Virus record (IMG/VR): IMGVR_UViG_3300021958_000035
Span: 31,217-95,216 of that record
DNA length: 64,000 nt
Direction: 5' to 3' (one strand)
Source: a virus
Lineage: Duplodnaviria; Caudoviricetes
Positions 21,145 through 63,443 of this stretch are shown in pieces; position 1 is the stretch's first letter, and every line of letters starts with the position of its first letter. The notes under the pieces are model-generated. The model searched no databases and was not told where the DNA came from. It saw nothing but the letters and a program-made list of their open reading frames with translations. Made by a program: the position numbers and the translations under genes.

Positions 21145-22833
21145 ATGAGAAAAAAACGAATTCTGTTCTGTAGCGAAGCTACTTTCCTTAACACTGGATA
21201 CGCGACCTACACTCGTGAGATCTTGAATTACCTACACTCCACTGGAAAATATGAGCTTGCAGAATTGGCAGCTTACGGTCAACGAAATGACCCAAGGGCA
21301 GCAAATATTCCTTGGAAATTCTACGGCGTTCAGCCAAACACAGACTGCGAACCGAAGGCAAGTCAGGAAGAACTTCAGGCGTTTGGATCATCCGCTACAA
21401 ACCAATTTGGAGAATGGATTTTTGAGCATGTTTGCTTAGATTTCTTGCCTGATATCGTGTGCGATATTCGAGACTTTTGGATGCTCGACTTCGCAGAGAG
21501 AAGCCCTTTTCGACCCTATTTCGATTGGGTAATTATGCCAACGGTCGATGCTAGACCGCAAGCACGACAGTGGATTTCAACATATGCTGGTGCTGATGCT
21601 TGTCTGACATACTCTGATTGGGCAGGAACTGTACTTGCAGATCAGTCTGGTGGTAAGATTAAGTATCATGGATCTTCACCGCCTTCTGCTCATCCAGCAT
21701 ATCACCCCATTGAAGATAAGAAAGCACACAAGCTATCTATGGGGATTGACCCAGAATATAAAATCATTGGAACTGTTATGCGTAATCAACGACGTAAACT
21801 GTACCCAGATTTATTTGAAGCATTTAGGAAATTCTTAGATAAGTCGGAAAGCAAGAAGTATTATCTTTATTGTCATACTTCTTATCCTGATCTTGGTTGG
21901 GATATTCCAGAGTTAATCTTGCAAAACAACCTGTCTTCACATATTTTGTTCACCTATATCTGTCCTGAGACAAAAAAGCCATTCCCATCATTGTTTAAGG
22001 GTGCTGTAGCACAGTCTCCATACACTGGAAAATGGGGTTCTACTCTATCAAACGTAAAGAATGGTGCGTCTTACGAGGATCTGTCTCGAATCCAGAACCT
22101 CTTTGATCTTTACACTCAGTATGCTAACTGTGAAGGTTTTGGCTTGCCCTATGTAGAAGCTGCTGCTTGTGGCGTTCCAGTATGCGGCACTGACTACTCT
22201 GCTATGGAGAGTGAGATTCGTAAACTGCAAGGTCATCCCATCAAACCGGCTGCACTTTATAAAGAGTTAGAGACTGGTTGTCTTCGTGCTGTTCCAGATA
22301 ATGATGCGGCAGCGGAATATTTCCGTCACTTCTTTGAAGATAAAACTGACGAAGAACGTGCCGCAGAAGGTAAGCGAACAAGGAAGAACTTTGAAAAGCA
22401 CTTCCAGTGGCACCTTAGTGGAAACAAGTGGGAGCAAATCTTTGACAATGCTCCTATTAGACCTATTGAGCAAACTTGGGCTTCGCCTCCACGGGTTCTA
22501 GATCCCGCAGGTAAGATTCCAGATGACCAATTGGAGAATGTAAGTCCAACTATGCAGGCTCAGTACCTTATCAGAAATGTTCTGAGAGATCCATCAAGGG
22601 TAGGAACATTTTTTGAATCTAGAATGATCAGAGATTTAACTTATAAGTCGTCTACGGGATCAACTGGTGGTATGTACTTTAATGAATGTAGTCAGGCATT
22701 TGATGGTGCAAATCAGAGACAAGTTTTTGATTTTCATGTTGCTTACGATTCTATGGTGGCACAAAGGGGTAGAATCAATAGCTGGGAACAAAAACGAATC
22801 GAAGTACTAAAAAATAAGGGAGTTATTAAGTGA
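21145..22833 (+). CDS. GT4-family (GT-B) glycosyltransferase
   Basis: TGY N-motif, VMRNQRRK, EGFGLPYVEAAACGVPV (E-x7-E). Confidence 0.9.
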   Translation: MRKKRILFCSEATFLNTGYATYTREILNYLHSTGKYELAELAAYGQRNDPRAANIPWKFYGVQPNTDCEPKASQEELQAFGSSATNQFGEWIFEHVCLDFLPDIVCDIRDFWMLDFAERSPFRPYFDWVIMPTVDARPQARQWISTYAGADACLTYSDWAGTVLADQSGGKIKYHGSSPPSAHPAYHPIEDKKAHKLSMGIDPEYKIIGTVMRNQRRKLYPDLFEAFRKFLDKSESKKYYLYCHTSYPDLGWDIPELILQNNLSSHILFTYICPETKKPFPSLFKGAVAQSPYTGKWGSTLSNVKNGASYEDLSRIQNLFDLYTQYANCEGFGLPYVEAAACGVPVCGTDYSAMESEIRKLQGHPIKPAALYKELETGCLRAVPDNDAAAEYFRHFFEDKTDEERAAEGKRTRKNFEKHFQWHLSGNKWEQIFDNAPIRPIEQTWASPPRVLDPAGKIPDDQLENVSPTMQAQYLIRNVLRDPSRVGTFFESRMIRDLTYKSSTGSTGGMYFNECSQAFDGANQRQVFDFHVAYDSMVAQRGRINSWEQKRIEVLKNKGVIK

Positions 22834-24692: not shown

Positions 24693-25318
24693 AAGTTTTA
24701 GATACGAGAGATGACTATCTAGACTACATCAAAACACTGCTTCCAGAAAACCCGAAAGTTCTGGAGATTGGTGTAGAGCATGGGCATTTTTCAGAAAAGA
24801 TTATGAAAGTTCTGGAGCCATCAGAGCTTCACTTGTTAGACCCTTGGGACTGGAATCTCGACAATGGACTGGTCTATCAAGAAGGTCATATGAGAAATGT
24901 ACCCACTGCTCACAGCAATGTGAACATGCAGATTGTGCTGGAGAGAAAGTACGAAAAAGAAATTGCAGAAGGCAGAATTCATATCCACAGAGGGTACTCT
25001 CATGAACTAGTCGATGAATTTGAAACAGCATACTTTGACTTTATTTATTTAGATGGTTGTCATTTGTATGAGTCTGTAAAGAAAGACATCGAGTGCTATG
25101 TGCTTAAGGTGCAACCTGAAGGCGTTTTGGGTGGGCACGATTACATTAGTCAGGAAACGTTGTTTATTCAAGAGGGTGTTACCTATACCAATCAACTTGG
25201 ATACGGAATTAAACAGGCCGTAGACGAATATTTAGAATCCAATCCGGTAGTTGGGATGTGTGCCTTAGTTAGTAGCGATATGCCATTTCCTGATTGGGCA
25301 ATTAGGAGGAAAAAATAA
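24689..25318 (+). CDS. Class I SAM methyltransferase (Methyltransf_24-like)
   Basis: VLEIGVEHG, LDPW, FDFIYLDGCHLYE, GGHDY. Confidence 0.9.
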   Translation: MKVLDTRDDYLDYIKTLLPENPKVLEIGVEHGHFSEKIMKVLEPSELHLLDPWDWNLDNGLVYQEGHMRNVPTAHSNVNMQIVLERKYEKEIAEGRIHIHRGYSHELVDEFETAYFDFIYLDGCHLYESVKKDIECYVLKVQPEGVLGGHDYISQETLFIQEGVTYTNQLGYGIKQAVDEYLESNPVVGMCALVSSDMPFPDWAIRRKK

Positions 25319-26418
25319 TGAAAGTTTTATACATTGGATATTACAAAGAACATAGCGATTGGGGTAAGATTGCTAGGAACAACATTCTAGCCCTAGATTC
25401 TGCTGGCGTAGATGTTGCATGTCGGTCAATTGTATTTGGCATCGACCATACTCCAGAAGAAATGAGAAGGTTTGAAGAAAAAGACATTGAAGATTGCGAT
25501 GTTTGTATACAGCACTTATTCCCAGACCATATGCTTCCATCGTCTAAATTCAAGAAAAACATCGCTATTTTAGCAAATGAATTTGTTGAAGCTAAACACT
25601 CTACTATTATAGAAAAGCTAGATCGTTTCGATCAGATTTGGGTTCCAAGTGCGGGGGCTGAAATTGCTTTTAAGGATACGCCTATCGAAGATAAGATTAA
25701 ACGAGTCCCATATGCATTTAACAAAGATAACTACAAAGCCACTACTAGTGCAATAAATGGGGGGATTGAAACAAAAGATAAGTTCAGATTCTATACCATT
25801 ATCAATAATGAGGGTGATGGAGTAGAAAGAGTATTGAGATGTTTCCATTCCGAGTTTGATGACACAGATAATGTTGTACTCCTGTTAGGTGTAGACGAAT
25901 CATGTAACAAGCAACTTATCGACCAGAAGATTGAAAAGGTAAAAACAGACTTAGGACTCAAGCCGCAAGCATCCGATTACAGGAAAGACGTATTCGTTCC
26001 AAGACTAAGCGGGTCTCATGAGCCACTTCATATTTTTTCAGATTGTTATGTTAGTTGTGGAACTCAAAGAACTTTGAATCTAGAAGAGTTTGAAGCCTTC
26101 GCCTTTGGCAACACACCAATTGTACCAAATTCAACAGACGCAGAGGAATACTTTTATGATTATGAATGTGTTGTAGCATCTATCTATCAAACAAATACAA
26201 ACCGATCAAAAATGTGGCCGGATTTGAACAATGGCAAGGACTATGTTATCATACCTTGCGAAAAAGAAATGAAAGAGACGATGAGAAAATTGTACAGTGC
26301 TTGGTCAGAAAACCCAGTCATTTATAGTGTAAATAGAAAAAGAGAAGCATTTGAAATATTGGAAGTAATGTCGCTAGAAAATATAGGAAATTATATGAAG
26401 GAGAATCTAAATGCTTAA
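25318..26418 (+). CDS. GT4-like glycosyltransferase (degenerate catalytic motif)
   Basis: DQIWVPS, SDCYVS..LEEFEAFAFGNTPIV. Confidence 0.7.
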   Translation: MKVLYIGYYKEHSDWGKIARNNILALDSAGVDVACRSIVFGIDHTPEEMRRFEEKDIEDCDVCIQHLFPDHMLPSSKFKKNIAILANEFVEAKHSTIIEKLDRFDQIWVPSAGAEIAFKDTPIEDKIKRVPYAFNKDNYKATTSAINGGIETKDKFRFYTIINNEGDGVERVLRCFHSEFDDTDNVVLLLGVDESCNKQLIDQKIEKVKTDLGLKPQASDYRKDVFVPRLSGSHEPLHIFSDCYVSCGTQRTLNLEEFEAFAFGNTPIVPNSTDAEEYFYDYECVVASIYQTNTNRSKMWPDLNNGKDYVIIPCEKEMKETMRKLYSAWSENPVIYSVNRKREAFEILEVMSLENIGNYMKENLNA

Positions 26419-27391
26419 AATTCACTCTTTGATTCAAAAAGTGCAAAGGCCAAAAGACAAGGTTTATAACATCCTAACCTTCAATACTCATGAGCGTTAC
26501 CAGACTCAAGTTGCAAAGACTGGTCATAATTTTTACGCATTTAATTTTGATGGCGGGAAAGATTGGCTTACTGAACATGCACCCATGCCAAGTAATTACT
26601 ATCAACTTCCCAAAAATTCTGTTTTTCCGGGTGTAACCTTTGACTTTATTTTTGTCAATAGTAAATTTGGACAATATCAAATTGCTGAACAGATTAACTC
26701 TTCTTTGCAGTTGCCAGTATTGTGCTTAGAGCATACGTTGCCACATCTTAACTGGCCTGCGGAGCATCTTCTGCAATTCCAGAAAATGCGTGGTGATGTC
26801 AATGTATTTATTACGGAATATTCTAAAAGTAAATGGGGTATTCCCGGTGAAGTGATTTACCACTCTATTGATGCAGAGTTATTTAAACCGTCTGACGTTG
26901 AACGTAAACCTCAAGTCCTAACCGTTGCTCACGACTTTATTAATCGTGACTATGCTTTAAATTTCAATGGTTGGAATAGGATTACAGATGGGATGAATAG
27001 AGTTGTAGTTGGAGAGACAGAAGGGTTATCCAAAGCAGCAGCATCGGTGGATGAGTTGGTGAAGCAGTATCAAGAGTCTTTGGTTTATATTAATCCAAGC
27101 ACTCTCAGTCCTGTTCCTACATCCATGTTAGAAGCCATGTCGTGCGGCTGTGCGGTCGTTTCTACGAATACGTGTGATATTCCAAATATTATTAAACACG
27201 GCGAGAACGGCTTTCTGAGCAACGATGAGGGCGAATTGAGAGGTTATATCGAAAAACTATTAGCTGATCCAGAACTAGCAAAGAAAATAGGAGAATCTGC
27301 CAGACAAACTATTCTAGAAAGGTTCTCAGAAGATAGGTTTATTAATGAGTGGAACACTACTTTTGACAAAACATATGGAGTAATTAAATGA
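26411..27391 (+). CDS. GT4-family glycosyltransferase
   Basis: YINPS...MLEAMSCGCAVVST..IIKHGENGFL..ARQTILERFS. Confidence 0.88.
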   Translation: MLKIHSLIQKVQRPKDKVYNILTFNTHERYQTQVAKTGHNFYAFNFDGGKDWLTEHAPMPSNYYQLPKNSVFPGVTFDFIFVNSKFGQYQIAEQINSSLQLPVLCLEHTLPHLNWPAEHLLQFQKMRGDVNVFITEYSKSKWGIPGEVIYHSIDAELFKPSDVERKPQVLTVAHDFINRDYALNFNGWNRITDGMNRVVVGETEGLSKAAASVDELVKQYQESLVYINPSTLSPVPTSMLEAMSCGCAVVSTNTCDIPNIIKHGENGFLSNDEGELRGYIEKLLADPELAKKIGESARQTILERFSEDRFINEWNTTFDKTYGVIK

Positions 27392-27807
27392 AACTACAAA
27401 TTATCAGACCAGAGCAAGATACGATTGGCGGCTACGAGGTAGCACAAATTACACAGCCTAATTCGCTTGAGTTGTCCCATATTGTAGACAATTCTTGTGA
27501 ATCTATTCTAGCGGCAGATTTAATGGATTCTTTCAGTTCTAATACTGTGCGGCAGGTTTGTCAAGCATTAGTATCCAAACTTAGGCTCGGCGGTGAAGTT
27601 TCTATTGGTGGAACAGACGTTAGATTTTTCTATAAATTTCTGGCGAACGGTCTTCTTGATGTAGAGAGTGCGTGTCAAATTATTACCGCTACATATTCCA
27701 TGTCTACCTCTGATATGGCTGTAGAGGCATTGAAAAGTCTAGGGTTAGAAATCCTCACTGTGCATATGGATGGACTACACTACGAGGTTAAAGGAGTGAG
27801 GAAATAA
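27388..27807 (+). CDS. Methyltransferase-fold protein, probably degenerate
   Basis: DNSCESI...LVSKLRLGGEV matches the back half of a class I MTase; no GxG SAM loop seen. Confidence 0.5.
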   Translation: MKLQIIRPEQDTIGGYEVAQITQPNSLELSHIVDNSCESILAADLMDSFSSNTVRQVCQALVSKLRLGGEVSIGGTDVRFFYKFLANGLLDVESACQIITATYSMSTSDMAVEALKSLGLEILTVHMDGLHYEVKGVRK

Positions 27808-28526
27808 TGGATTGTAGCAAGTGTGTGTTTAAGATGGAAAATGAAGGCGTTCAAACAGGATGTAGTGTTGGTCGCCTTCAGAAATTGATTGATAAAGGCA
27901 AGGCTGATTTGAAGACATTAATGTTTGGTATGCCAGCAAGCGAGACTGTGTACGAATTGACCCAGTTTTGCAATATGTACAGGGAAGAAGAGTGTGACAT
28001 AGATAAGCAAAGATACAATGTAATGCCTCTATTCGGAATTATTGCATCTCTTAAGCCTGAAGATACTTTTGAAGAGGTTGACGCACTGTGTAAACATCTT
28101 GAGTCTCTGAAATATCCAAAGGAAAAGCTGAAGATCGTAATTTCAGCACCTAGCGGTCTAAAATATGCAGATAGTCTATTGCATAGATTTATGATGTTAA
28201 AAGAAAACTTTATCGCAGCAGAGTTGGTGCTACATCTGCACAACGAAGCAAATGCAAGAGACAATGAAACGTTTAAAAAAATGTTAGAAGCTACCTATTT
28301 TGTCAAGATGAACGTGAAAGACAGATTTAACCTAGACGTTTTTCAGGTAGTAGATAAAATGCTTAATGACGAACTGAAACAACTGTGTTTTATAGAAAAT
28401 AATTCAATACACATCGTGCTAAAGAGTGTCATTCAGCAAATATATTACAATTATGGAAGCTATGAAAAAGCCGTAAAAGGCTTGAAAACAATCTCTATGG
28501 AGCAGGGCAAATATGAAAAAATCTAA
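27807..28526 (+). CDS. Cys-rich N-terminus plus degenerate GT2-like domain
   Basis: CSKC..C..C; LESLKYPKEKLKIVI resembles a GT2 N-terminal motif; no DxD. Confidence 0.45.
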   Translation: MDCSKCVFKMENEGVQTGCSVGRLQKLIDKGKADLKTLMFGMPASETVYELTQFCNMYREEECDIDKQRYNVMPLFGIIASLKPEDTFEEVDALCKHLESLKYPKEKLKIVISAPSGLKYADSLLHRFMMLKENFIAAELVLHLHNEANARDNETFKKMLEATYFVKMNVKDRFNLDVFQVVDKMLNDELKQLCFIENNSIHIVLKSVIQQIYYNYGSYEKAVKGLKTISMEQGKYEKI

Positions 28527-29274
28527 TAGCTTCATTACAAACGCTAGATCTAATAATTCTGGGTTACTCAGAGATGGGAAGATAACTGTAATACTTCTGG
28601 CTGAAAATTATGGCTACAGGATGAAGTCTTACGGTTCCATCTCTTTGATAGAATTTGAAGGTCAAACGTTATTAGAAAGACAAGTAAGTGCGATTAAGTC
28701 TGTTTTTTTAGAGTCCGAAATAATCTTATGTTCAGGTTTTGAAACAAACAAAGTTTACCACTTTGTAAACTCTAAATTCCCAAGCAGTTATAACATTAGA
28801 ATAGTAGAAAATCAAGTTTATTATCATTCAAATTGTTGTGAGGGTCTGAGATTATGCATGAACAATACGACCAACAACAGGATATTAGTATGCGGTGGTG
28901 GTGTAGTGCTGACACCAAAATTCTTGAAAAGTCTTAATCTTAGAAAGTCATCAATATTAACTCAGGTGGGAAAGAAAGAAGACACATTTGAGATAGGGGT
29001 GATACCAAACGATTCAAGATTAGAAAATATGTCTCTAGCGATTAAAGACAATGTATGGACCGAGCTACTGTACTTGACAGGAGAGCCACTCGTAAAATCT
29101 TTCTACAACTTAATATCCAAGGCAGAACTTAAAAACAAATTTCTGTTTGAGGCTATAAACTTATGGAAAGGCAGAAAGCAACTAAGTATTTTTGAAAACG
29201 ATTCTGACCCAATATTTAAAATTGACAACATAAAAACCCTCAAAAGGATAACCAATGAAAATTTTGTTCCATAA
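28513..29274 (+). CDS. Nucleotidyltransferase-fold protein (LicC/MobA-like), degenerate
   Basis: ILLAENYGYRMKSYGSISLI aligns to ILAAGxGxRMxxxxPKxLI; LLERQV, SGFE, IDNIKTL. Confidence 0.7.
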   Translation: MKKSNSFITNARSNNSGLLRDGKITVILLAENYGYRMKSYGSISLIEFEGQTLLERQVSAIKSVFLESEIILCSGFETNKVYHFVNSKFPSSYNIRIVENQVYYHSNCCEGLRLCMNNTTNNRILVCGGGVVLTPKFLKSLNLRKSSILTQVGKKEDTFEIGVIPNDSRLENMSLAIKDNVWTELLYLTGEPLVKSFYNLISKAELKNKFLFEAINLWKGRKQLSIFENDSDPIFKIDNIKTLKRITNENFVP

Positions 29275-37634: not shown

Positions 37635-37674
37635 AAAAAAGAAGGGCGGGGCTTTCTGGCCCTGCCCTTTTTCT
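37635..37674. terminator. Bidirectional rho-independent terminator
   Basis: A6-g-aagggcggggc-tttctg-gccctgccctt-T run, between convergent gene blocks. Confidence 0.85.
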
Positions 37675-37679
37675 CTTAG

Positions 37680-37739
37680 GGTCTGCTGAAAAGGTCATAG
37701 ATTTCACATCTATTCACCCTTCACGCAGGCCTTTTTTTT
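37680..37739 (+). terminator. Second long imperfect hairpin with U8 tail
   Basis: ggtctgc/gcaggcc, tgaa/ttca and atagat/atctat stems followed by T8. Confidence 0.6.
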
Positions 37740-37775
37740 ACTTTACAAGGAATCCCAAGGAAATATATCTGCTCC

Positions 37776-48981: not shown

Positions 48982-48983
48982 GG

Positions 48984-56700: not shown

Positions 56701-59700
56701 AGGTCAGTAACACCACTAGCAAATGAGTGCTTCTCATAAAAATCTTGGAATTCATCGTATATATTGTAAACTGTACCGTTTTCATCGGCATATTGTAAAG
56801 CTCCAGCAGTAGACCCTGTCTGCTCTTTGAACATACCAATAATAGCTGGAATACCGCTGTAAGCAGCAGCATTTGGATTACCACTTGGGAAGGCTGTAAA
56901 GAATCCATCTAGAACACCACTGAGCATCTGGTTGAATACAACGGGCTGACCAGAAGCAACAAAATCAGCGAGAGTTCCTGATCCACCAAGTACGTCAGAA
57001 CCAACCTCAGTTAGCAGATCAAGATCGTCTAGTCTAGGAATGTATCTATGTGTAAACCAATCAGACTCATCGGTAGGAATATTAGGATAGTCCCTATTGG
57101 AATAGGTTAATTGGAAGACAAGTAGATTTGGCTTAATTTCTGCATACCACTCGTCTGGTCCAGCGTTCCAAGGTGCTGAGAAGTATTTCCAAAGAATATT
57201 AAATTTACCAGCCGAAGCAGCAACATCTTGTAGCTTAGTCTTGTTGTATGCAAACAAGTCAGCAAAAATCATTCCCGCAGCAGGAACACCGGAAGTTACA
57301 AGATCGTCAAACTCTCTTGACCACTTAGCACGAGGTGCTCCAACGGCAACAACTTCTCTGTCACCACTGGCCGACAATGATAATGATTCACCGAACTGTC
57401 TACCTTCTTGACCAATCTGCCACTTGTTTCCAGAGATAGAAAAATCACCAAATGATAACAGACTATCTGTTGTTCTCTGGATATAATCTTTTCTAAAGCC
57501 AGATGGTAGCATCAATTGCTCTTCCAAGACCCAATCTGCTTTCTTGCCAGCCTCGTCTTGTCCTCTTCGATACAAGAATACAGCACCCGCACCGCTGACT
57601 TCTATGTTACCAAAGCCACCACCAGATGGATAAACGCCATAATCAGGAATTGTGATGTTAGGTGCGGCAACAGCCATAATGTCTTCACTGACAGCAACGT
57701 TTTGACCAAATTTGTCACCAATGTTTCTGCCAGACGCAACGATCAAGTCAGAGTCAGAGTAAAGGTTTGCAGAAGGTGGAACGCCACCAGCATCATCACC
57801 AATAAGTTTGACACCAGAGAATACAATATTTCCATCGCAGTCCTCTGTACAGCATCCGCTACCGTCTGCATACCAAGCTGGACCGCACATTCCATATCCC
57901 CATTCCTCAAACGTCCTTGGGACAGGAATAGCTGCGGTAGAGCCGGTAACAATACTCATGGTCGCGAAGTACGGAGTAGAAGGAAGAAGCTGAGTGTACT
58001 TCCTTATTCCATAGTAATTTCCGCTGTATCCTAAGCCGCCCTCAAAGTTGATCGCACCAGAATTTGTGTAGGTAGCTTTGGCTCGGAATATTCCACCTTC
58101 GTTGCATGTCTCTTCTCTCCAAACAATACAGTCTGTTTCGAGTGCGGCATCAACCGCTTTACTTGGGCTGTCCCCTGTGCAAGATCCATAACCTATTAAG
58201 TCTACGCCTCTAATCTCATTATCTGCGGACAGAACGGCATAAGAGTTATCTTCGAGTTCAATTCCGGTCCCATAGTTATTATTGTGCCACAATGCAAATG
58301 CAGATCCAGTGCCTTTAGATCCTACATTGTAACTCGCCGTAACGAGATTAACTGTGTTTGTCAGTAAAGATTCTACTAATGGGTTATGAAGATACAGATT
58401 CATGTCTGTATCAATTATGTTTGGAGCATTAATATACAACGGCATAGTAGACGTTGTTCGTGAATCCAGAATCTGGTTTCTTCCAAACATGCTCAGATTA
58501 ATAAATCCACTTGCAGCAGTCTCTTGTGTGTTCCCAATAGACTTATTATATAAGTACATTGGAATTGATCGGTATATACTACTTCTGTCACCAAGAGATG
58601 CGGACATGTTCAGATTGAGGAATGGACCCTCTGGGCTTTCACCGAAATCTACATTATAGACAGTAAGAGGAAGACCAAAGATATTCCCGCTGCCATAGTT
58701 TGGAGAGTTTGGATCTGAAGTATCTGGATTTGCATCTAAGGAATTATCTAGTGATCCGAGGGTAATTGGCAAAGCAAGTGGCATACTTCCAGAAGCTATA
58801 TCTGGAATTTGACCACTGACATATAGATTGAATGAGATGTCGCCAGACTGTGGCGGCATGAACAAGTTAAGTGCTTTACTACGAGGGAAAGCACCACTAA
58901 CATTGAGATGGAAACCAGAAGGAAGCCCTTCTGAAATAACATCATAATCAAAAGGAACCTGAATAGTAAGATCTAAACTATCGTTAGTTTCCCTTGGGAA
59001 TCCACCAATGTTCATATTCAGAGTATTGGACGCAGGATAAGCACCACTAGAGTACAAATTAAATGTACCACTATTAGCAGTCTTGCAAACGTTGACATCC
59101 TGCATCCTTACGTGTGAAGAGTGCATCTCAATTCTAGAATCAAACGCTGGCCCAGATGGGTAAACCAAGTCATACTGAACAAACATTTGATTTACATCGT
59201 CTTTGAAATATCTTTCTGAGAAGTCTTTTAATCTTGGTTCTTCGGGGAAGACAGTCCAAGCGTCAGTTTCTTCACAGATAGAATCGTAATCAAAAACGGA
59301 GTCAAGTTTGATTAGACAACTAGACGGTTCGATGTAGTGAGTTTTACGGTTTACAAGTCCCCAGTTTGGTTCGTCTGAAGTCCAGTATGGCTCCTGCTTC
59401 TTGGTGTAAAGACTGACGATCATCTGAGGTCCAGAAGGCATGATGTCAGTACATGCTTCCCACTCTATGTTCGCACCGGTCTTATGCTCAAGAACAGTCT
59501 CAACAACGAGGGCACGTTCAGAGAATTTGTATCCGACTGGTAGGCTTTTAGTTATTCTTCTATTTACAGCATAGAATGAATCTTCAACGTCTGACAAATG
59601 GAAACGTAGGAAATCGTTTTCCATCTGTGTATGATATGCAACACCACTGTCTACATTAGATAATAATGGTAAGTCATTATTTTGTGAGTAACCAGAACCA

Positions 59701-62700
59701 TGATGACTTAACTCAAAGATAATATGCTCTGCGTTTGGACGTTTTTGCCACTGGTCAAAACCAAATCCAAACTGACACCACTTAAAATCACCGATAGCCC
59801 AATCGTTGTAAGTATCTTCGTTTACTCTGTCCCAAAGTTTGTATCTATCATTAGTATAAGACTCATCGGGGTCAAAGAACTTAGCACGACTATTTTCTAA
59901 AAATACATCTGCGTTAACGCCCTTATAAGTTTTATCTGCACCAGACGCTACAATGTTCGTACCAAATCCGTACAGCGTATCAACGCCAGAGCTATAGGTG
60001 GAAACACCAAACTCACTGAGCAGAATATTCATACCCACGCCAGAGCCAGCAGAATATCCTAAGACAATATTTGCATCGTTTGCATTTTTATGGAACGGAG
60101 AAGATGTAGCTCTCAGTACATCAAAGTCAGATCCACCAAATTCATTATCAGTGTAAAGTCTAAGTCTATGGTTGCCATTATCATTATATGTAAGAATAGT
60201 ATTTAATGGGAATTGATAACCACTATACTTGATAGTATCTTTGACTTTTATAATATCACCGTTGACATCTTGGGCGTAACCACAAAGGAATCCATCCTCA
60301 TAACCGAGGGCAAAGTCCATGTCTTCAGCAGTGACCCACTTAGATACAATAACACCACTGTCAAACAGGTTGTAGCCTACTCCAGAAACGTTTGCGTCTG
60401 GTGTGAATCTAGTGAAGATAGCAAAACCGCCAGACACATCAACAGGGCCAAAGTTAATATTCTGACCACCAACCTCACCACTAATTCTAATGACTCTATC
60501 AAATGCGTCGGCAATCTTTCCATACAATGGGTTGCCAACAAAGGTTGTAGAACCATTGGATAGAGATGTCCAGTCAGTAGTGGTATAGTTACCACTGTAT
60601 CCCGGAAGTTGATCGTTAAATAGTGTACCGCTTGCAAATCTCCAACCAATATTATGGTAAATTTCTGGGTCGGTCAAGCACAGACCGCTGAGAGTGCCCA
60701 AACCACTAGGAGAGGATGACCCCATATCAACAGACAATACATATCTATTTTCTGGCCCAAAAGAATCAAACTTGTAGTAACCTGACAAGAATGGGTAGTC
60801 TATGGTTGGATTTTCAAAACCAAAACTGAAGGAATCTAAATCGTATGGTCCACGAACTGTACCCTCTGAACCTCGCCATCTTCTAGAGTAGTTTGTTTTG
60901 ATTGTATCAGGCGAACTATAGGCATGGGGAAGACCTGCGATGGCAGAAATTGGTTGATATCCAGAACCAGCGTTCAGTATGTCGTCATAAGATTCCATAC
61001 CCGATGGGAACAATGCACCTTCTGATCTACCAGCCTGAGCCTTACCTATCTTCTCACCGCCTTGAGTGTAGATGTTGAGACCGTCTGCTGGTGCATATCT
61101 GGCACAAAGTTCTATGTATGCAATAGAAGCACCACTAGGAAGTGGATAAATGTCTAAGTATAAATGTTCCAATAGTGAGCTTAGACTATAATCTCTAGAT
61201 ACTCCATGTCTTATATCATCATCAAGAATAATCAAGGGTACTTCATAAAGTTGGAAGTCAGTAGTATTAACCACTGGGTACTGGGCCAATTTATAATGAT
61301 CATTCCCGCTCGCCTCAAAGTAGGCACCTCTCTCAGATAACCCAGCACCACCCATTGTCCAGTCTGAGTTGTCGCCGTAGAATCCTGATATGATGGGATG
61401 TTGCCCAACATGAGGAACGAATGTATCGTTGAGGAATACACCTGATGGATCTTGAATAAATCCTCCAGACGAGCTTGTTACATTCAGCAACTTGTCGTCG
61501 CTGTAACCAACAACATCAAGTATATAGTCTCTGGTGCCCACTTCTTTTTTAGCCAGAACCTTGAGTGTTAAAGATTCTACATTAAAGTAAGGCGAGTCTT
61601 CTTGTATCTCTTCTGTGCGTTTTTCAACATTAAATGCACCGCTAGGCGAGAACCAGATGTCTTTAGTGCCTTGGTCAAATGCAAAGTCAAAATCACCCGG
61701 AGTAATTTCGTCTACTTTTGATCTTCCATGCTTAAACTTCAGTATGAGCTTACCAGAGTCAGAAACATCTCCACCCTCTGCGGTTTGCAGTTTGATGTAG
61801 TGATCACTATTTTGAACATGAAGGATGTTAATAAGCTCCTGTGCTCCGCACACATCTTCATTTGTTACACTAAGAGTGTCGTTTTCCCATATGTTATTAT
61901 TTACCGCTGGATATATTGTAGTGTCATATGTATTGAGGGGCATAAAGTTGGGCTTGATGCGTCTCTCAAGACGCCTACCCTTGTCCCTAACAGCCATTTG
62001 GAGTGGGAGATAGTCTTCTGGTCTTGGTCCGAATCCACCGCTATTACAAATCTCAACAGCAGAGATTCTAAAACCTCTTGTTGGATTGATAAATCGAACT
62101 TCTTGAGTTGATAAAGGTTGACCATCTAGGGCAAGGTAGTTATTTCCACTAGCATAGAACGTTTCGGGAATAATGTAGTTATCTTCAAAACCCTCATCAA
62201 AACCCTCTGTAAATGGATCATCTAAAGAAACGGCACGGACACTAAAAGACAGTTGATATCCAACATCTTCGTGCATATGGGGAAAGCCGCGTCTTTGCCA
62301 GTCGTACTTATCTGATATAGCATTTAATTCTGGCAAAGAAGAGTATGTTGAAAAGTTTTCATACTCGTCGTTAGAATCGCCCTTTATCTGTATGTCATTA
62401 TATTTTACAATTAAGTCCCCAGAAGGGTCGGAAAGTCGAATATTGTATAATGTATAAAGAGGAGCAGTCTTAGACTCTAGGTTTGATAATGGTGCGGATA
62501 CGCGAATTTTAAACGCAGAATGATCTGGCCTAACATTTAAACTTGTTAAGTTGCAGTTATATTGAAAGAGCCCTTCTGTATGTATTGTATTCGGCTCAAT
62601 ATATGAATTGAGATCATCTGATAGATTGTTAGAGTCGCCACCATCTTTTGCTAAACCTTCATAAACACCTTCATCAATGTAGGACCAAAGATTACCGGAT

Positions 62701-63443
62701 TGATTGTGTAGGGCAATAAACGACCCGAACCCGTCTGTAACGGGAAGGTCGCCAGAAGGATACAGCTTACTCTGACAGTAGAAGTCGCCAAAGTCTCCAG
62801 CTATCTTGTCTACTGTGTTATCAAAATCGCCCTCACCAACAACCTGATGCGAAATAGAATAGTCGGTAATGAGGTCTTCGTCAATCTCTCCATCGCCCTC
62901 GATGGACATTAAAGGAAATGGTATCTCGACTGATAATAATCTAGATAGCTCGCCCTCGCCCTCTAGCGAGATATTTCCATTACCAAATGACTTCGCTATA
63001 GTTGCATTTGGAAGAGTTGGATGACCTATACCACTGGCAACTACGCTATCAATTTGGGCGGTGGTAAGATCAATACCTCCATCATAGAAGATTAATGCGG
63101 AACCATCAGAATATGTATTTATGACACTTGTTGTCTCTGTAAACGATGTGTCACCCGCTAGGCCAGAGATTGTTACTTCCCATCCAGCCTCTACAAATTC
63201 ACAGTTTTCTGGATCAGAACATCCATCAATGGTAAAATACGGACCAGATCCACCCAATACCGTGTCAAAATTTACGGTAAGAGTTTCACCCGGAGAAGCA
63301 ATTTTAGAATCGTTCTCAAGAGTGGCAAAAAGTGCCCCCTCATTTAAACCAAGAAATGCATCGACTTCTCCACCACCGGGACAGGTAACAGATGTGCCTT
63401 TGATGCACGAACATTCAAGACCTTTTAAGAATGGTTCCGACAT
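50790..63443 (-). CDS. Giant adhesin-like tail protein (4217 aa): LamG-like domain, beta-strand repeats, seven FG-GAP blades with inserted domains
   Basis: Seven (D)xFGxSVx..xGAP motifs; LamG-like GGFAIFTRFTP..VIVSKW; directly downstream of the tape measure gene. Confidence 0.75.
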   Translation of the reverse strand: MSEPFLKGLECSCIKGTSVTCPGGGEVDAFLGLNEGALFATLENDSKIASPGETLTVNFDTVLGGSGPYFTIDGCSDPENCEFVEAGWEVTISGLAGDTSFTETTSVINTYSDGSALIFYDGGIDLTTAQIDSVVASGIGHPTLPNATIAKSFGNGNISLEGEGELSRLLSVEIPFPLMSIEGDGEIDEDLITDYSISHQVVGEGDFDNTVDKIAGDFGDFYCQSKLYPSGDLPVTDGFGSFIALHNQSGNLWSYIDEGVYEGLAKDGGDSNNLSDDLNSYIEPNTIHTEGLFQYNCNLTSLNVRPDHSAFKIRVSAPLSNLESKTAPLYTLYNIRLSDPSGDLIVKYNDIQIKGDSNDEYENFSTYSSLPELNAISDKYDWQRRGFPHMHEDVGYQLSFSVRAVSLDDPFTEGFDEGFEDNYIIPETFYASGNNYLALDGQPLSTQEVRFINPTRGFRISAVEICNSGGFGPRPEDYLPLQMAVRDKGRRLERRIKPNFMPLNTYDTTIYPAVNNNIWENDTLSVTNEDVCGAQELINILHVQNSDHYIKLQTAEGGDVSDSGKLILKFKHGRSKVDEITPGDFDFAFDQGTKDIWFSPSGAFNVEKRTEEIQEDSPYFNVESLTLKVLAKKEVGTRDYILDVVGYSDDKLLNVTSSSGGFIQDPSGVFLNDTFVPHVGQHPIISGFYGDNSDWTMGGAGLSERGAYFEASGNDHYKLAQYPVVNTTDFQLYEVPLIILDDDIRHGVSRDYSLSSLLEHLYLDIYPLPSGASIAYIELCARYAPADGLNIYTQGGEKIGKAQAGRSEGALFPSGMESYDDILNAGSGYQPISAIAGLPHAYSSPDTIKTNYSRRWRGSEGTVRGPYDLDSFSFGFENPTIDYPFLSGYYKFDSFGPENRYVLSVDMGSSSPSGLGTLSGLCLTDPEIYHNIGWRFASGTLFNDQLPGYSGNYTTTDWTSLSNGSTTFVGNPLYGKIADAFDRVIRISGEVGGQNINFGPVDVSGGFAIFTRFTPDANVSGVGYNLFDSGVIVSKWVTAEDMDFALGYEDGFLCGYAQDVNGDIIKVKDTIKYSGYQFPLNTILTYNDNGNHRLRLYTDNEFGGSDFDVLRATSSPFHKNANDANIVLGYSAGSGVGMNILLSEFGVSTYSSGVDTLYGFGTNIVASGADKTYKGVNADVFLENSRAKFFDPDESYTNDRYKLWDRVNEDTYNDWAIGDFKWCQFGFGFDQWQKRPNAEHIIFELSHHGSGYSQNNDLPLLSNVDSGVAYHTQMENDFLRFHLSDVEDSFYAVNRRITKSLPVGYKFSERALVVETVLEHKTGANIEWEACTDIMPSGPQMIVSLYTKKQEPYWTSDEPNWGLVNRKTHYIEPSSCLIKLDSVFDYDSICEETDAWTVFPEEPRLKDFSERYFKDDVNQMFVQYDLVYPSGPAFDSRIEMHSSHVRMQDVNVCKTANSGTFNLYSSGAYPASNTLNMNIGGFPRETNDSLDLTIQVPFDYDVISEGLPSGFHLNVSGAFPRSKALNLFMPPQSGDISFNLYVSGQIPDIASGSMPLALPITLGSLDNSLDANPDTSDPNSPNYGSGNIFGLPLTVYNVDFGESPEGPFLNLNMSASLGDRSSIYRSIPMYLYNKSIGNTQETAASGFINLSMFGRNQILDSRTTSTMPLYINAPNIIDTDMNLYLHNPLVESLLTNTVNLVTASYNVGSKGTGSAFALWHNNNYGTGIELEDNSYAVLSADNEIRGVDLIGYGSCTGDSPSKAVDAALETDCIVWREETCNEGGIFRAKATYTNSGAINFEGGLGYSGNYYGIRKYTQLLPSTPYFATMSIVTGSTAAIPVPRTFEEWGYGMCGPAWYADGSGCCTEDCDGNIVFSGVKLIGDDAGGVPPSANLYSDSDLIVASGRNIGDKFGQNVAVSEDIMAVAAPNITIPDYGVYPSGGGFGNIEVSGAGAVFLYRRGQDEAGKKADWVLEEQLMLPSGFRKDYIQRTTDSLLSFGDFSISGNKWQIGQEGRQFGESLSLSASGDREVVAVGAPRAKWSREFDDLVTSGVPAAGMIFADLFAYNKTKLQDVAASAGKFNILWKYFSAPWNAGPDEWYAEIKPNLLVFQLTYSNRDYPNIPTDESDWFTHRYIPRLDDLDLLTEVGSDVLGGSGTLADFVASGQPVVFNQMLSGVLDGFFTAFPSGNPNAAAYSGIPAIIGMFKEQTGSTAGALQYADENGTVYNIYDEFQDFYEKHSFASGVTDLVQGIQQSGHLHTVIGRSEDWADTSVELMQDTFDSGRLSTTFTNTTLNRNFITSGVGQIWGNTHGSVVTEFQVPPASGGRVYLFEKERDNFNCIQVIVSPNDESELFDNPESMFGAGYAKTYNDRFGHSVALSKNSEVLAVGSPWNNNPCKIYERSESEIQKVYDNLRRWLVSKGSPFNYAVEYYDSVEGASGAVIAKTATYDYIKSPDRFEYRNDVMFWGSSLPEPYQLTFEYGHNDVRYVGTRKFLIDEFAGTSRMGWSCSVDENGEIVAFGAPTDSFNEFEDINVWGDTVKSWASYHNAGAVRMFHNRKHFPHNEVVELGRFGNLDRSTHNEERDAGYYDESNWPLIFGSGSTGFSDYQGKDWRRMSFSEIEIPQEAGLAFIITPEIDAVSDEIIDNIKDWLELGDRNLVLVGNDPVWEENGLYKESNDIINKILEKLGSRMRIQAAKDQSYSMQGCVSQQDLNDNKYNATASFLPAYSTARTIESNGKYYVKGVGDIRIDLSRDGLEDYFSTIDCPEGASCNGPSQIINTKYEFPLDGNRGDLRAEWNDSCVLTTPKSCKVVRYQRNWPFLFDNLTPVCDETPQPLFLKEDQSPTPVLTTAEHLPDTHWFEPATSGLQCDYEQRYRYRVKSKNEIDISLAEVNEDEIAFSIQGDTDSSISGLFNEFTFGGDTFDPDALNGRDGILQAAGSTTTSERTVTETVYPDHIFALVESGKKSDGTLNNSRVYILASQWPEDDASRGITHPTNNDDKNTEFYLNMIRKDCDEVAKGIQINGFTGRSSLNSAYNYDGSSTDHSLGNKINIELLLAGGFFRENQPITALNDQLDFVWLAFPSGKPSSSDFANLNSWLNIGEKKLIITYNADNEEYTQETADRIDYLCSGLNVTSRPMFLPKQDEYHRQSVIKTYGGETSSQIVNYATDSVSGCDDGYTWTSPNYQFATSLSGIEFSEKTSIEFGGGDKRFIVPLSGGADFERIVSFNDPVIQTYKEYASRNNWTIDGNASVKFPIEPGSGYRVWVNWVSETKFEEFGICLDTPTDIQREGNFGTIPSSFDSCGTLAELNKTATFTPSQFVFDFRTNEEQSITELELQFNTNKWSNFIDSQLLSGIPLPPSTPRILSVSGAPLEVITTIATTTSSGLVPDGPPVPVNCMYIVNPAQSGYIPGESRPVKHKSELYRGDIQFDDPDCLDASVNWAQKEIEDGPVIVAEEFENFSSFTNGSRRSKIILISDSTLLQGQCSHYRAAATQGNQSFVRNLYPPSPEESRDGSVGFGGGAGSPQGQAEGLDLGIPRNTVAGKNWEFTQKIRAPERGSTAKYVAISGSPIGADTLCPSRLWGGNGVTGSLGLYSDDEDSYDPTILTRPEEIKVPLKVQARKEEFFNNDVLGTYGIYPRFSGDFLDIVNYQGGIYQDYDLLLDLNENTDKDFIVDAGIGGGMTELMRIENTDYLDYDIFNSGCPGDLFGHSIQINDGKLIVGAPYNAFSAETAVSGISGVVQWHEIQNGEAGSGAKIGADGGAGAVFVYNNTDNGRNVIAEGLPWEFGAKIKPENVNVGLYDFSPSPIEVLEAERGPHQIVDPSFILEYGRRGDRFGFSVSIDCDMAAIGAPNHDFATLHHHIYSGAVAYNGSGLSTAFQRKSFNGEYDIPSHSFYDLADSGIRVDQFNNNSGLMILNGGAVYNYRNELVDFGARTQEWQFAEKLYAAGYQERVQTDIDDDGLGGFILTASGSDNDNFGKSVAIYRSFRGDSDYTLAIGSPHHDWPTSGNHPTSGLANAGSAYTFDAMLREQIPAIPNSGGWIDSHVFGNKKPKESMDRLETRVYQNVSGDPIEYKVSGIIFSNQNGDIFLEVSGFDPSRNGFVVHRPYVKELDLKILFGTPEDGSMNLVASGRPVLESGNMNLSMLGASSANVYNTLGLNSFGVSGIASADGIDQSGLFLNISAPSGPLPSSLNLVMGSTATTDSLDLRIRGF
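50965..50977 (-). promoter_or_regulatory. Second copy of candidate late promoter ATGTGTATAATAC
   Basis: Identical 13-mer inside the 3' end of the giant gene, about 175 nt upstream of the 50789 start. Confidence 0.45.

What the first reader, a model, noticed from the sequence alone, without database searches (positions are those of the whole stretch)
21145..63443. Candidate phage-encoded virion O-glycosylation system: large glycan island plus Ser-Gly-enriched tail proteins
Seen: about 18 coupled glycan genes (GT4s, GT2-, CgeB-, GT31- and DUF5672-like GTs, methyltransferases, an SDR epimerase, GDP-fucose synthase) sit just across the terminator from the tail module. Seen: SG dipeptides are conspicuous in several tail proteins. 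A rough hand count gives about 100 in the 4217-aa protein, six each in the 234-aa and 249-aa proteins, and four in the first ~110 aa of the 1742-aa protein, often as PSG/ASG/VSG/ISG. The 1484-aa protein and the + strand enzymes do not show it. Known: Ser-Gly is the acceptor motif of animal proteoglycan xylosylation, and a GT31 enzyme helps build that linker. Inference: this phage builds a methylated, fucose-containing glycan on Ser-Gly sites of its own virion proteins, giving a glycan coat for shielding or host mimicry.
Basis: partly seen in the sequence, partly recalled or inferred. Interest (0 to 1): 0.85.

Follow-up and report, generated by a model that had tools for sequence, protein, structure and literature searches.

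The report
Ser-Gly motif on phage tail proteins
The outer tail proteins of this uncultured aquatic phage and all its relatives carry a conserved, serine-specific Ser-Gly loop motif about 2.5 times too often, next to a conserved set of soluble sugar-transferase genes. This fits sugar attachment to the virus particle, but no chemistry shows it.

Summary
The 4217-aa protein has 101 SG against 38.9 expected (Poisson p 8e-17) but 44 GS. SG is its only strongly enriched dipeptide, and its codons vary. All 120 homologues (38-89% identity) show SG O/E 2.1-3.4 with GS near 1.0. The 234-aa family (4.3x) and the N-terminus of the 1742-aa family (2.7x) share the excess; the 1484-aa protein, the 1742-aa body and the enzymes do not.

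The motif is hydrophobic-x-[P/A/V]-S-G-hydrophobic and sits in loops and at strand edges. It is serine-specific (PSG 521 against PDG 44, PNG 34, PTG 65; phage enzymes 17:18:12:12). That serine is as conserved as tryptophan and is replaced by Thr rather than Ala.

The island is real: six core genes and variable cassettes, with no membrane proteins. It is present in every relative checked, so co-occurrence cannot test the link. T4 and cyanophage S-RIM8 lack GT4/GT2 genes and the strong excess.

The proteoglycan/GT31 analogy fails. Glycosylation at SG is my leading reading (about 0.4). An unmodified structural motif is nearly as likely.

This scan has already reported the same pattern on other DNA (33 findings, at least 33 genomes).

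The parts
21145..22833 (+). 'GT589': 562-aa GT4 (GT-B) glycosyltransferase and first gene of the island. It is the most conserved gene of the region.
   Evidence: PF00534 38.1 bits against a 26.4 cut-off. The E-x7-E motif is intact. Identity is 74% and 67% to relatives whose giant protein is 58% and 30% identical. Present in 51 of 51 related loci. 685 cluster representatives at E<=1e-30, including 900-1330-aa tandem fusions. No hit in 50,697 GenBank phage records.
22830..25318 (+). Accessory cassette: GalE-like SDR epimerase (22830-23843), DUF5672 (23931-24692) and Methyltransf_24 (24689-25318).
   Evidence: Pfam; NCBIfam GalE 127 bits, below its cut-off. Present in 23, 17 and 7 of 51 related loci.
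25318..30148 (+). Conserved island core: a 366-aa GT-B-like protein, a 326-aa GT4, 139-aa and 239-aa unknowns, an NTP-transferase-like protein with a degenerate G-loop, and a 297-aa unknown.
   Evidence: Present in 50, 51, 47, 34, 51 and 51 of 51 loci. PF00534 62 bits for the 326-aa protein. The best solved relative of the 366-aa protein is chlorovirus glycosyltransferase B736L, 3oy2, E 4.9e-5. The nucleotidyltransferase glycine loop is not conserved (the sequence there reads AENYGYRM).
30145..35333 (+). Variable cassette: phrog_14945 GT, a 208-aa unknown, a CgeB-like Glyco_trans_1_2, a weak GT31-like, a 262-aa DxD protein, a 168-aa protein with a SAM-type GxGxG motif, and an Fcl-like GDP-fucose-synthase relative.
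   Evidence: Fcl scores 259 bits, below the equivalog cut-off of 500. The block 30848-34326 has no counterpart in G1 or G5. The GT31-like gene is in 3 of 51 loci.
35333..37624 (+). Four conserved genes at the end of the + strand block that are probably not glycan genes: a 146-aa unknown, an HNH-like endonuclease, a 253-aa unknown and a 110-aa zinc-ribbon protein.
   Evidence: phrog_559 E 1.3e-13; weak zinc-ribbon Pfam hits. Conserved in G1 and G5 at 36-81% identity.
37639..37740 (.). Terminator region between the convergent blocks: a GC-rich hairpin flanked by A and U runs, then a second hairpin followed by U8.
   Evidence: RNA fold -58.4 kcal/mol, z -4.0. The simple terminator scan missed it.
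37776..38525 (-). 249-aa protein with a modest SG excess.
   Evidence: 6 SG against 2.8; orthologues have 7 against 3.0 and 5 against 2.2.
38578..43032 (-). 1484-aa protein, fast-evolving and without SG excess.
   Evidence: 7 SG against 10.5 and 16 GS. 38% identity to G1 and only a 135-residue match to G5.
43042..48270 (-). 1742-aa protein. The N-terminal ~110 aa are SG-rich and the body is SG-poor.
   Evidence: SG at 13, 31, 46 and 106. The same positions carry SG in the G1 orthologue. In 58 orthologues the N-terminal 120 aa have 82 against 30, while the whole protein is at 0.82.
48277..48981 (-). 234-aa protein with the strongest SG excess per length.
   Evidence: 6 against 1.3. Fourteen orthologues have 93 against 21.4 and 22 GS.
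48984..50789 (-). 601-aa protein with a mild SG excess, confined to residues 305-475.
   Evidence: 8 against 4.9. 59 orthologues are at O/E 1.35.
50790..63443 (-). 4217-aa giant structural protein. It contains at least one ConA-like jelly-roll domain, an FG-GAP (integrin-like) propeller and N-L-x-x-S-G repeat stretches, and it carries 101 SG.
   Evidence: for the SG data. FG-GAP_2 77.6 bits. AF2 models with pLDDT 74.6 and 66.6. Foldseek hits to lectin-like jelly rolls and integrin alpha propellers.
63453..64000 (-). C-terminal end of a large upstream protein (2860 aa in G1, 2256 aa in G5), cut by the contig end. It may be a tape-measure-like protein.
   Evidence: Matches the C-termini of the G1 and G5 proteins. 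Weak PHROG hits to tape-measure proteins, E about 0.005.

Best explanation
Shown: a subset of outer tail and fibre proteins of this ~170-kb uncultured aquatic phage lineage carries a conserved, serine-specific motif, hydrophobic-x-[Pro/Ala/Val]-Ser-Gly-hydrophobic. The motif lies in loops and at beta-strand edges, at about 2.5 times the chance frequency. A conserved block of soluble glycosyltransferases and sugar-nucleotide enzymes lies next to the structural module in every relative checked.

Inferred: the island's cytoplasmic GT-B enzymes O-glycosylate these serines on newly made tail proteins before or during assembly. The invariant 562-aa GT4 is the best candidate for the initiating enzyme. 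The variable cassettes (epimerase, methyltransferases, Fcl-like, extra GTs) would then extend a strain-specific glycan. The result would be a heavily glycosylated tail surface, with up to ~100 sites on the giant protein, serving protection, solubility or surface masking.

The SG-poor 1484-aa protein and the body of the 1742-aa protein would stay bare.
For: 1. Directional, protein-level excess: 101 SG against 44 GS, with varied codons.
2. The excess is kept in 120 homologues down to 38% identity.
3. In complete relatives it also occurs in other structural-module proteins, which show no sequence similarity to the giant and fall into several families, but not in terminase, in the head- and packaging-sized proteins next to it, or in enzymes.
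4. Serine monopoly: PSG 521 against PDG 44, PNG 34 and PTG 65 in the giants. The same phages' non-structural proteins give 17:18:12:12. S-RIM8 giants give S 15, T 23, D 9, N 5.
5. Ser of SG is conserved at 0.70, the same as Trp, against 0.41 for other Ser. N of NG is 0.37 and D of DG 0.39. Substitutions favour Thr (24%) over Ala (6%), against 14% and 14.5% at other serines.
6. The same flank pattern (P/A/V at -1, K/R excluded at -1, hydrophobic at -3 and +2) appears in the giants and in 12 other SG-rich proteins that show no sequence similarity to them. It is absent at SG sites of enzymes.
7. In the confident parts of the model, 0 of 16 SG serines lie inside strands, against 13 of 38 other serines.
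8. No island protein has a TM-like segment, so there is no sign of a flippase, polymerase, ligase or polyprenyl-phosphate transferase. The island was found in all 5 complete relatives searched and, by the contig names listed, on about 22 IMG/VR contigs that carry both genes.
9. T4 and S-RIM8 have no PF00534 or PF00535 gene, and their tail proteins are at SG O/E 1.06 and 1.6.
10. Precedents: TibC heptosylates Ser but not Thr in autotransporter loops, including an N-S-G-G site (PMC4358343). SdgB and SdgA are GT-B enzymes that O-GlcNAcylate Ser of Ser-Asp dipeptide repeats (PMC8561734). Mycobacteriophage virions are glycosylated (as cited in PMC12619734).
Against: - There is no chemical evidence of any modification.
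- Island and SG excess co-occur in every relative, so there is no natural contrast. The outgroup contrast is n=2 and not phylogenetically controlled.
- The motif has the geometry of an ordinary beta-hairpin turn (Pro/Ala, polar residue, Gly), and 73 SG columns are kept in at least half of 29 diverged homologues. A purely structural role could therefore explain the conservation.
- The flanks are hydrophobic, so some serines may be poorly accessible. I could not compute solvent exposure because model coordinates are not exposed.
- Asn and Asp are, after Thr, the next most common replacements, as expected for a turn position.
- Large proteins of the same module lack the excess.
- The island sits with the replication genes on the + strand and could act on another cytoplasmic target.
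Confidence: 0.4

Rival explanations
1. Unmodified structural motif. Ser-Gly is this lineage's preferred way to build tight turns and bulges between strands in beta-rich tail proteins, with the Ser hydroxyl capping the backbone. The island acts on something else, such as host envelope precursors, a soluble metabolite or DNA.
For: - SG sits at strand edges and in loops.
- P/A/V at -1 and hydrophobic residues at -3 and +2 fit a type I turn with a G1 bulge hairpin.
- Many SG columns are invariant across 29 homologues.
- Thr, Asn and Asp, the other side-chain-capping residues, are the commonest replacements.
- S-RIM8 giant proteins show a mild SG excess (1.6) without any GT4 or GT2 gene.
Against: - Turn propensity alone predicts Asp and Asn at least as often as Ser. 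Here PSG outnumbers PDG 12:1, while the same phages' enzymes give 1:1.
- NG and DG residues are not specially conserved (0.37 and 0.39), whereas SG serine is (0.70).
- The excess spans several protein families and folds: jelly roll, propeller, fibre repeats and other tail proteins.
- Gly- and Ser-rich proteins of the same module (1484 aa, 1742-aa body) lack it.
- T4 tail proteins are at 1.06.
Confidence: 0.33
2. Two unrelated features, or a different modification. The virion may be glycosylated at sites other than SG. Alternatively, the SG serines may carry or serve another function, such as phosphorylation, acylation, or recognition by an assembly chaperone.
For: - The link between the island and SG is by proximity only.
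- In mycobacteriophages the glycans sit on the C-termini of capsid and tail-tube subunits (PMC12619734), not on a dipeptide motif.
- The shared flank pattern would fit any trans-acting reader.
Against: No kinase, acyltransferase or chaperone candidate was identified in the window. The glycosyltransferases are the only conserved modifying enzymes found near the module.
Confidence: 0.15
3. Chemical-stability selection. Ser replaces Asn and Asp before Gly because Asn-Gly deamidates and Asp-Gly isomerises (established peptide chemistry). That would damage long-lived extracellular particles in slightly alkaline water.
For: It explains the direction (X-Gly, not Gly-X), the restriction to virion proteins and the choice of Ser. 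NG is 0.68 and DG 0.87 in the giants, against 1.18 and 1.07 in the same phages' enzymes.
Against: - The SG surplus (about 48 per giant) is about three times the combined NG, DG and TG deficit (about 15 per giant).
- The other SG-rich proteins of G5 have NG 1.04 and DG 1.52.
- The marine cyanophage S-RIM8 shows no NG depletion (0.97).
- Head-sized proteins show no SG excess.
- It does not explain Trp-level conservation of the serine.
Confidence: 0.07
4. One reading: a proteoglycan-like linker, started by xylosylation of Ser-Gly and extended by a GT31 enzyme.
For: Ser-Gly is the animal xylosylation site (established). One ORF (32328-33038) gives a weak Galactosyl_T (GT31) hit, E 1.5e-4.
Against: - Acidic residues are depleted around SG.
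- No xylosyltransferase-like family was hit.
- The GT31-like hit is below the Pfam cut-off, and the gene is in only 3 of 51 related islands and absent from G1 and G5.
Confidence: 0.03

Closest known systems
Bacterial autotransporter heptosyltransferases (TibC/AAH) acting on TibA and AIDA-I (PMC4358343)
   Same: A cytoplasmic GT-B-type enzyme hyperglycosylates many serines, and not threonines, in loops of a beta-rich surface protein encoded nearby. One mapped site is N-S-G-G.
   Different: None of the 21 island proteins scanned hits the heptosyltransferase family. The candidate enzyme is GT4-like, and its nearest solved relatives are BshA-type GT4s. The acceptors are phage tail proteins with jelly-roll, propeller and fibre-repeat parts rather than a beta-helix. 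No modification has been shown.
SdgB/SdgA and GtfA/GtfB: GT-B enzymes that O-GlcNAcylate serine-rich repeat adhesins (PMC8561734)
   Same: GT-B enzymes act stepwise on serines defined by a dipeptide context (Ser-Asp). Several GT-B paralogues work together. The island core also holds three GT-B-type proteins.
   Different: Their acceptors are long, low-complexity, acidic repeats. Here the sites are scattered in folded, non-repetitive domains with hydrophobic flanks. No DUF1975 insertion domain was detected.
Mycobacteriophage virion glycosylation (Freeman et al. 2023, as summarised in PMC12619734)
   Same: Phage-encoded glycosyltransferases decorate the phage's own structural proteins in the cytoplasm.
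   Different: There the glycans sit on the C-termini of capsid and tail-tube subunits and need only a couple of GT genes. Here the candidates are about 100 internal SG sites per giant tail protein, head-sized proteins show no excess, and the island has about 20 genes. The primary paper was not available to me.
Type I beta-turn with G1 bulge (3:5 hairpin loop)
   Same: Pro/Ala, then a small polar residue, then Gly, flanked by strand residues. SG sites lie at strand edges in the model.
   Different: In ordinary proteins, and in this phage's own enzymes, Asp, Asn, Ser and Thr share the polar position. Here Ser holds it about 12:1 and is conserved like Trp. That Asp and Asn are generally favoured in this turn is from my own knowledge.
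Chlorovirus capsid glycosylation by virus-encoded cytoplasmic enzymes
   Same: It is a large virus-encoded, membrane-independent glycan pathway. The 366-aa core protein's best solved relative is chlorovirus glycosyltransferase B736L (3oy2, E 4.9e-5).
   Different: Chlorovirus glycans are N-linked to the capsid protein (my own knowledge). The sequence link is weak and covers only the C-terminal GT-B domain.

Membership tests
GT4 glycosyltransferases (Pfam PF00534, GT-B fold): the 562-aa and 326-aa island proteins | Score above the Pfam gathering cut-off for Glycos_transf_1 | tested here: met
   38.1 and 62.4 bits against a cut-off of 26.4.
GT4 glycosyltransferases (Pfam PF00534, GT-B fold): the 562-aa and 326-aa island proteins | E-x7-E catalytic/donor motif in the C-terminal domain | tested here: met
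   The 562-aa protein has an intact E-G-F-G-L-P-x-V-E motif, invariant in three orthologues. The 326-aa protein keeps only the second Glu in the aligned position.
Bacterial autotransporter heptosyltransferases (BAHT: TibC/AAH) | Heptosyltransferase-type catalytic domain with the iron-finger insertion | tested here: not met
   None of the 21 island proteins scanned hits a heptosyltransferase family at E<=0.01. The nearest solved relatives of the 562-aa GT are GT4 enzymes such as BshA.
Bacterial autotransporter heptosyltransferases (BAHT: TibC/AAH) | Serine-only acceptors in loops of a beta-rich substrate encoded next to the enzyme | tested here: inconclusive
   Serine specificity and loop position of the motif are shown. 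Whether these serines are acceptors is unknown.
Proteoglycan-type Ser-Gly xylosylation linker | Acidic residues flanking the Ser-Gly acceptor | tested here: not met
   D/E enrichment is 0.47-0.75 at -3 to -1 and 0.58-0.63 at +2 and +3.
Proteoglycan-type Ser-Gly xylosylation linker | Xylosyltransferase and a conserved GT31 galactosyltransferase | tested here: not met
   No xylosyltransferase-type family was hit. The GT31 hit is 22 bits against a cut-off of 23, and the gene is in 3 of 51 related islands.
Mycobacteriophage-type virion glycosylation | Phage-encoded glycosyltransferases | tested here: met
Mycobacteriophage-type virion glycosylation | Glycans demonstrated on virion subunits (capsid and tail-tube C-termini) | not testable with these tools
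   No isolate and no proteomic data exist for this lineage. Head-sized proteins of relative G1 show no SG excess.
Und-P-dependent surface polysaccharide loci (O-antigen/capsule type) | Initiating polyprenyl-phosphate transferase, flippase or ABC exporter, polymerase or ligase (all multi-pass membrane proteins) | tested here: not met
   No 19-residue window with mean hydropathy of 1.6 or more exists in any protein from 20826 to 63917.
Glucosyl-hydroxymethylpyrimidine DNA modification (T4 type) | A ThyA-family pyrimidine hydroxymethylase accompanies the glycosyltransferases | tested here: not met
   PF00303 matches only 2 of the 5 complete relatives, all of which have the island. Other routes to modified bases were not examined.
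FG-GAP / integrin-alpha-like beta-propeller (part of the giant protein) | FG-GAP repeats above the Pfam cut-off and a propeller fold | tested here: met
   FG-GAP_2 77.6 bits against a cut-off of 23. Foldseek hits to integrin alpha propellers, E 4e-5, on a model of modest confidence (pLDDT 66.6).
GDP-L-fucose synthase (Fcl): ORF 34323-35333 | Score above the NCBIfam equivalog cut-off | tested here: not met
   259 bits against a cut-off of 500, although Fcl is clearly the best hit, E 5.5e-77. 'Fcl-like SDR' is the safe name.

The most novel reading that the evidence does not exclude
Abundant uncultured aquatic phages hyperglycosylate their own tail and fibre proteins at a short serine-specific sequon (hydrophobic-x-P/A/V-S-G-hydrophobic). 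A dedicated, membrane-independent, phage-encoded pathway does this. An invariant GT4 starts the glycan and exchangeable cassettes diversify it, giving tens to about 100 glycans per giant protein.
Probability: 0.4. Interest if true: 0.85.

Novelty: new variant of a known kind. Interest (0 to 1): 0.6.

Why it matters
If the SG serines are glycan sites, this would be the first sequon-defined protein glycosylation system of a phage. It would also extend virion glycosylation from a few mycobacteriophages to a large, widespread aquatic lineage: 179 giant-protein clusters and 685 GT clusters in public data.

A glycan-coated tail would change how we think about three things: phage decay and stickiness in water, recognition by hosts and grazers, and the many 'auxiliary' glycosyltransferase islands annotated in marine viromes as host-surface or DNA-modifying genes.

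It would also supply a compact enzyme-plus-sequon pair for glyco-engineering.

If instead the motif is structural, it is still an unusually clean example of a lineage-specific rule for building turns, and a useful marker for outer virion proteins in unannotated phage genomes.

Tried and rejected
- DNA-level cause of SG: rejected. Sixteen different codon pairs encode SG.
- Compositional clustering of Ser and Gly in loops: rejected as the main cause. GS would rise equally, yet it stays at 1.04-1.13.
- Internal tandem repeats: rejected. SG sites are spread over the whole 4217 aa in varied contexts. FG-GAP consensus and the N-L-x-x-S-G repeats account for only a minority.
- General property of tail proteins: rejected. 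Nineteen T4 structural proteins have 72 SG against 68 expected.
- Generic X-Gly turn preference: rejected. NG, DG, TG and PG are at or below expectation.
- Co-occurrence test: uninformative, because all relatives have both features.
- Cultured relatives: none found. There were no matches in GenBank phages for the giant, for a 1503-aa SG-rich protein or for the 562-aa GT. The terminase is only 25% identical to Bacillus siphophage terminases.
- Freeman et al. 2023: not held in the library.
- The 297-aa core protein stayed unassigned.
- Solvent exposure of SG serines: not computable, because model coordinates are not exposed. Only DSSP positions were used.
- Literature search for a described Ser-Gly excess in phage tails: nothing relevant found.
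Full report
**Setting**

The window is the last 64 kb of a single 95,216-bp virus contig. It has three parts.
- The + strand from 1 to about 21 kb encodes replication functions: RNR small subunit, a UvsX-like recombinase, DnaB, primase and a split DnaE.
- From 21145 to 37624 the + strand carries 22 tightly packed, mostly overlapping ORFs.
- After a strong hairpin terminator a convergent block on the - strand encodes proteins of 249, 1484, 1742, 234, 601 and 4217 aa. It ends with the C-terminus of a still larger protein cut by the contig end.

None of the - strand proteins matches PHROGs, and only the giant matches Pfam (FG-GAP_2).

**Is it a tail module?**

Five complete relatives of 167-176 kb share the order DnaE, island, convergent block. 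Two of them have terminal repeats. In relative G1 the - strand block continues for 70 kb through proteins that match PHROG tail-fibre, tail-spike, baseplate, virion-structural and head families, up to the large terminase. One of these proteins has homologues annotated as virion structural proteins in cyanomyoviruses. The giant gene directly follows a 2860-aa protein whose C-terminus gives weak tape-measure hits. So 'tail module' is a reasonable inference from synteny, not a demonstrated fact.

**The Ser-Gly observation**

| Protein | SG observed | SG expected | Other |
|---|---|---|---|
| 4217 aa | 101 | 38.9 | shuffle z 11.3; Poisson p 8e-17; 44 GS, binomial p 2.5e-6 |
| 234 aa | 6 | 1.3 | |
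| 249 aa | 6 | 2.8 | |
| 601 aa | 8 | 4.9 | |
| 1484 aa | 7 | 10.5 | |
| 1742 aa | 7 | 9.7 | four of the seven lie in the first 106 residues |

- SG is the only strongly enriched dipeptide of the 400 in the giant. NG (0.75), DG (0.84), TG (0.38) and PG (0.34) are at or below expectation.
- Sixteen codon pairs encode SG. The signal is therefore at protein level and is not a general X-Gly effect.
- GS serves as an internal control for Ser and Gly merely clustering together in loops.
- Excluding the giant, the contig's proteins sum to 123 SG against 114 expected.

**Conservation**

A database search found 179 related giant proteins. The 120 listed (38-89% identity) all have SG O/E 2.07-3.37, with GS averaging 1.04.

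In an alignment of 29 of them:
- 73 SG columns are kept in at least half of the sequences and 25 in at least 90%.
- The serine of SG is conserved at 0.70, equal to tryptophan, against 0.41 for other serines.
- By contrast N of NG (0.37) and D of DG (0.39) are not specially conserved.
- When the SG serine is replaced, Thr accounts for 24% and Ala for 6%. At other serines the figures are 14% and 14.5%.

| Family | Orthologues | SG observed vs expected | Note |
|---|---|---|---|
| 234 aa | 14 | 93 vs 21.4 | GS 22 |
| 1742 aa, N-terminal 120 aa | 58 | 82 vs 30 | |
| 1742 aa, whole protein | 58 | O/E 0.82 | |
| 601 aa | 59 | O/E 1.35 | |

**Extent and specificity**

In complete relatives G1 and G5 a dozen further structural-module proteins have SG O/E 2.2-2.5 and TG about 0.6. 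None of them shows sequence similarity to the giant, and they fall into several families. The terminase, the head- and packaging-sized proteins next to it, and three other large tail proteins show no excess.

The position before Gly is almost monopolised by serine:

| Set | P-S-G | P-D-G | P-N-G | P-T-G |
|---|---|---|---|---|
| 55 giants | 521 | 44 | 34 | 65 |
| Non-structural proteins of the same phages | 17 | 18 | 12 | 12 |

In the giant structural proteins of cyanophage S-RIM8, [PAV]-X-G gives S 15, T 23, D 9 and N 5.

The flanks are shared between the giants and the other SG-rich proteins. P/A/V at -1 is enriched 1.97x and 1.91x. K/R at -1 falls to 0.22 and 0.23. Hydrophobic residues are enriched about 1.5-1.6x at -3 and +2. 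None of this appears at SG sites of the phages' enzymes.

Controls:
- Nineteen T4 structural proteins have 72 SG against 68 expected, and 74 GS.
- The S-RIM8 giants are at 1.6.

**Structure**

An AlphaFold model of residues 600-1450 (49-sequence alignment; pLDDT 74.6) is mostly beta. It contains a lectin-like jelly roll that matches a generic ConA-like fold in many solved proteins. In its confident parts none of the 16 SG serines lies within a strand, against 13 of 38 other serines (Fisher p 0.006). Several sit in hairpin turns such as Y-P-L-P-S-G and V-Y-P-S-G.

The C-terminal 658 residues model less well (pLDDT 66.6). They resemble integrin-alpha FG-GAP propellers. The last ~90 residues, made of N-L-x-x-S-G repeats, are unconfident and may need oligomerisation.

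**The island**

Profile evidence supports these assignments:
- two GT4 enzymes
- a CgeB-like Glyco_trans_1_2
- a PHROG glycosyltransferase
- DUF5672
- a Methyltransf_24
- two SDR enzymes, one GalE-like and one Fcl-like (both below the NCBIfam equivalog cut-offs)
- sub-threshold GT31-like and NTP-transferase-like proteins
- a 366-aa GT-B-like protein whose best solved relative is a chlorovirus glycosyltransferase

. One gene near the 3' end is an HNH-like endonuclease, and the 110-aa zinc-ribbon protein and two unknowns beside it have no glycan-related match. No protein of the region has a TM-like segment.

Across 51 related loci, six genes form a core present in 47-51 of them. These are the 562-aa GT4, the 366-aa protein, the 326-aa GT4, the 139-aa protein, the NTP-transferase-like protein and the 297-aa protein. 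The epimerase (23), DUF5672 (17), methyltransferase (7), CgeB-like (6) and GT31-like (3) genes are accessory.

The 562-aa GT4 is far more conserved than its neighbours or the structural proteins:
- It has 82% mean column identity among three genomes whose giants share 30-58%.
- Its family has 685 clusters at E<=1e-30, some fused in tandem.
- It has no hit among 50,697 deposited phage genomes.

A ThyA-family gene is present in only 2 of the 5 complete relatives. This argues against hydroxymethyl-pyrimidine glycosylation as the island's conserved role.

**Weighing the readings**

The proteoglycan analogy fails on every testable point: flanks, enzymes and conservation of the GT31-like gene.

The general idea, phage-encoded O-glycosylation of outer virion proteins at SG, is consistent with everything seen. 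It gains from three results that turn geometry alone does not predict:
- the serine monopoly
- the hydroxyl-preserving substitution bias
- the shared flank pattern across several protein families

It also has working precedents: TibC/AAH (serine only, loops, one N-S-G-G site; PMC4358343) and SdgB/SdgA (GT-B enzymes acting on a dipeptide context; PMC8561734).

Against it:
- There is no chemistry.
- The motif has ordinary hairpin geometry.
- Asn and Asp rank, after Thr, as the next most common replacements.
- The island and the excess never occur apart among relatives.

A chemical-stability explanation (avoiding Asn-Gly and Asp-Gly) accounts for too few sites and is inconsistent between genomes.

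I put glycosylation at SG at about 0.4, an unmodified structural motif at about 0.33, and other possibilities below that.

**Relation to earlier work in this scan**

The same pattern has been reported repeatedly on related DNA: 33 findings in at least 33 genomes. Follow-ups reached similar 'confirmed but unproven' verdicts. I did not count those as evidence. My own additions for this window are:
- the P-X-G serine monopoly measured against internal and outgroup controls
- the NG and DG conservation contrast
- the core and accessory map of the island over 51 loci
- the family-level checks of the 234-aa, 601-aa and 1742-aa proteins

Noticed in passing
window 28513-29274 (+): The NTP-transferase-like core gene is present in 51 of 51 related islands, yet its nucleotide-binding glycine loop is not conserved (the sequence there reads AENYGYRM). 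It may be a conserved pseudo-enzyme or a binding subunit.
   Followed up: partly
window 21145-22833 (+); proteins P0149-P0298: The 562-aa GT4 family is very large (685 clusters at E<=1e-30). It includes 900-950-aa and 1270-1330-aa forms with two or three tandem matches, which suggests fused multi-module transferases in other genomes.
   Followed up: no
window 35766-36530 and 37292-37624 (+): An HNH-like endonuclease and a 110-aa zinc-ribbon protein close the + strand block. They are conserved at 49-81% identity in relatives, which is unusually stable for a homing-type endonuclease.
   Followed up: no
window 50790-51060 and about 58460-59070 (-); giant residues 4135-4217 and 1458-1660: Periodic N-L-x-x-S-G repeats occur in two stretches of the giant. 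The C-terminal stretch is modelled with pLDDT below 40. It may be an oligomeric fibre-shaft element.
   Followed up: partly
55 giant-protein homologues (L001-L064): Cys-Cys is the only dipeptide more enriched than SG in the pooled giants (O/E 2.75). This hints at conserved vicinal cysteines.
   Followed up: no
window 63453-64000 (-): The contig ends inside a gene whose full-length orthologues are 2256-2860 aa and give weak tape-measure PHROG hits. The 4217-aa gene therefore directly follows a probable tape-measure gene.
   Followed up: partly
window 38578-43032 (-): The 1484-aa protein evolves much faster than its neighbours: 38% identity to G1 and only a 135-residue match to G5. It has GS (16) above SG (7). 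It may be a receptor-binding tip.
   Followed up: no
window 37639-37740: Two consecutive strong hairpins lie between the convergent blocks. The first is flanked by an A-run and a U-run, so it could terminate in both directions. The consensus terminator scan found neither.
   Followed up: yes
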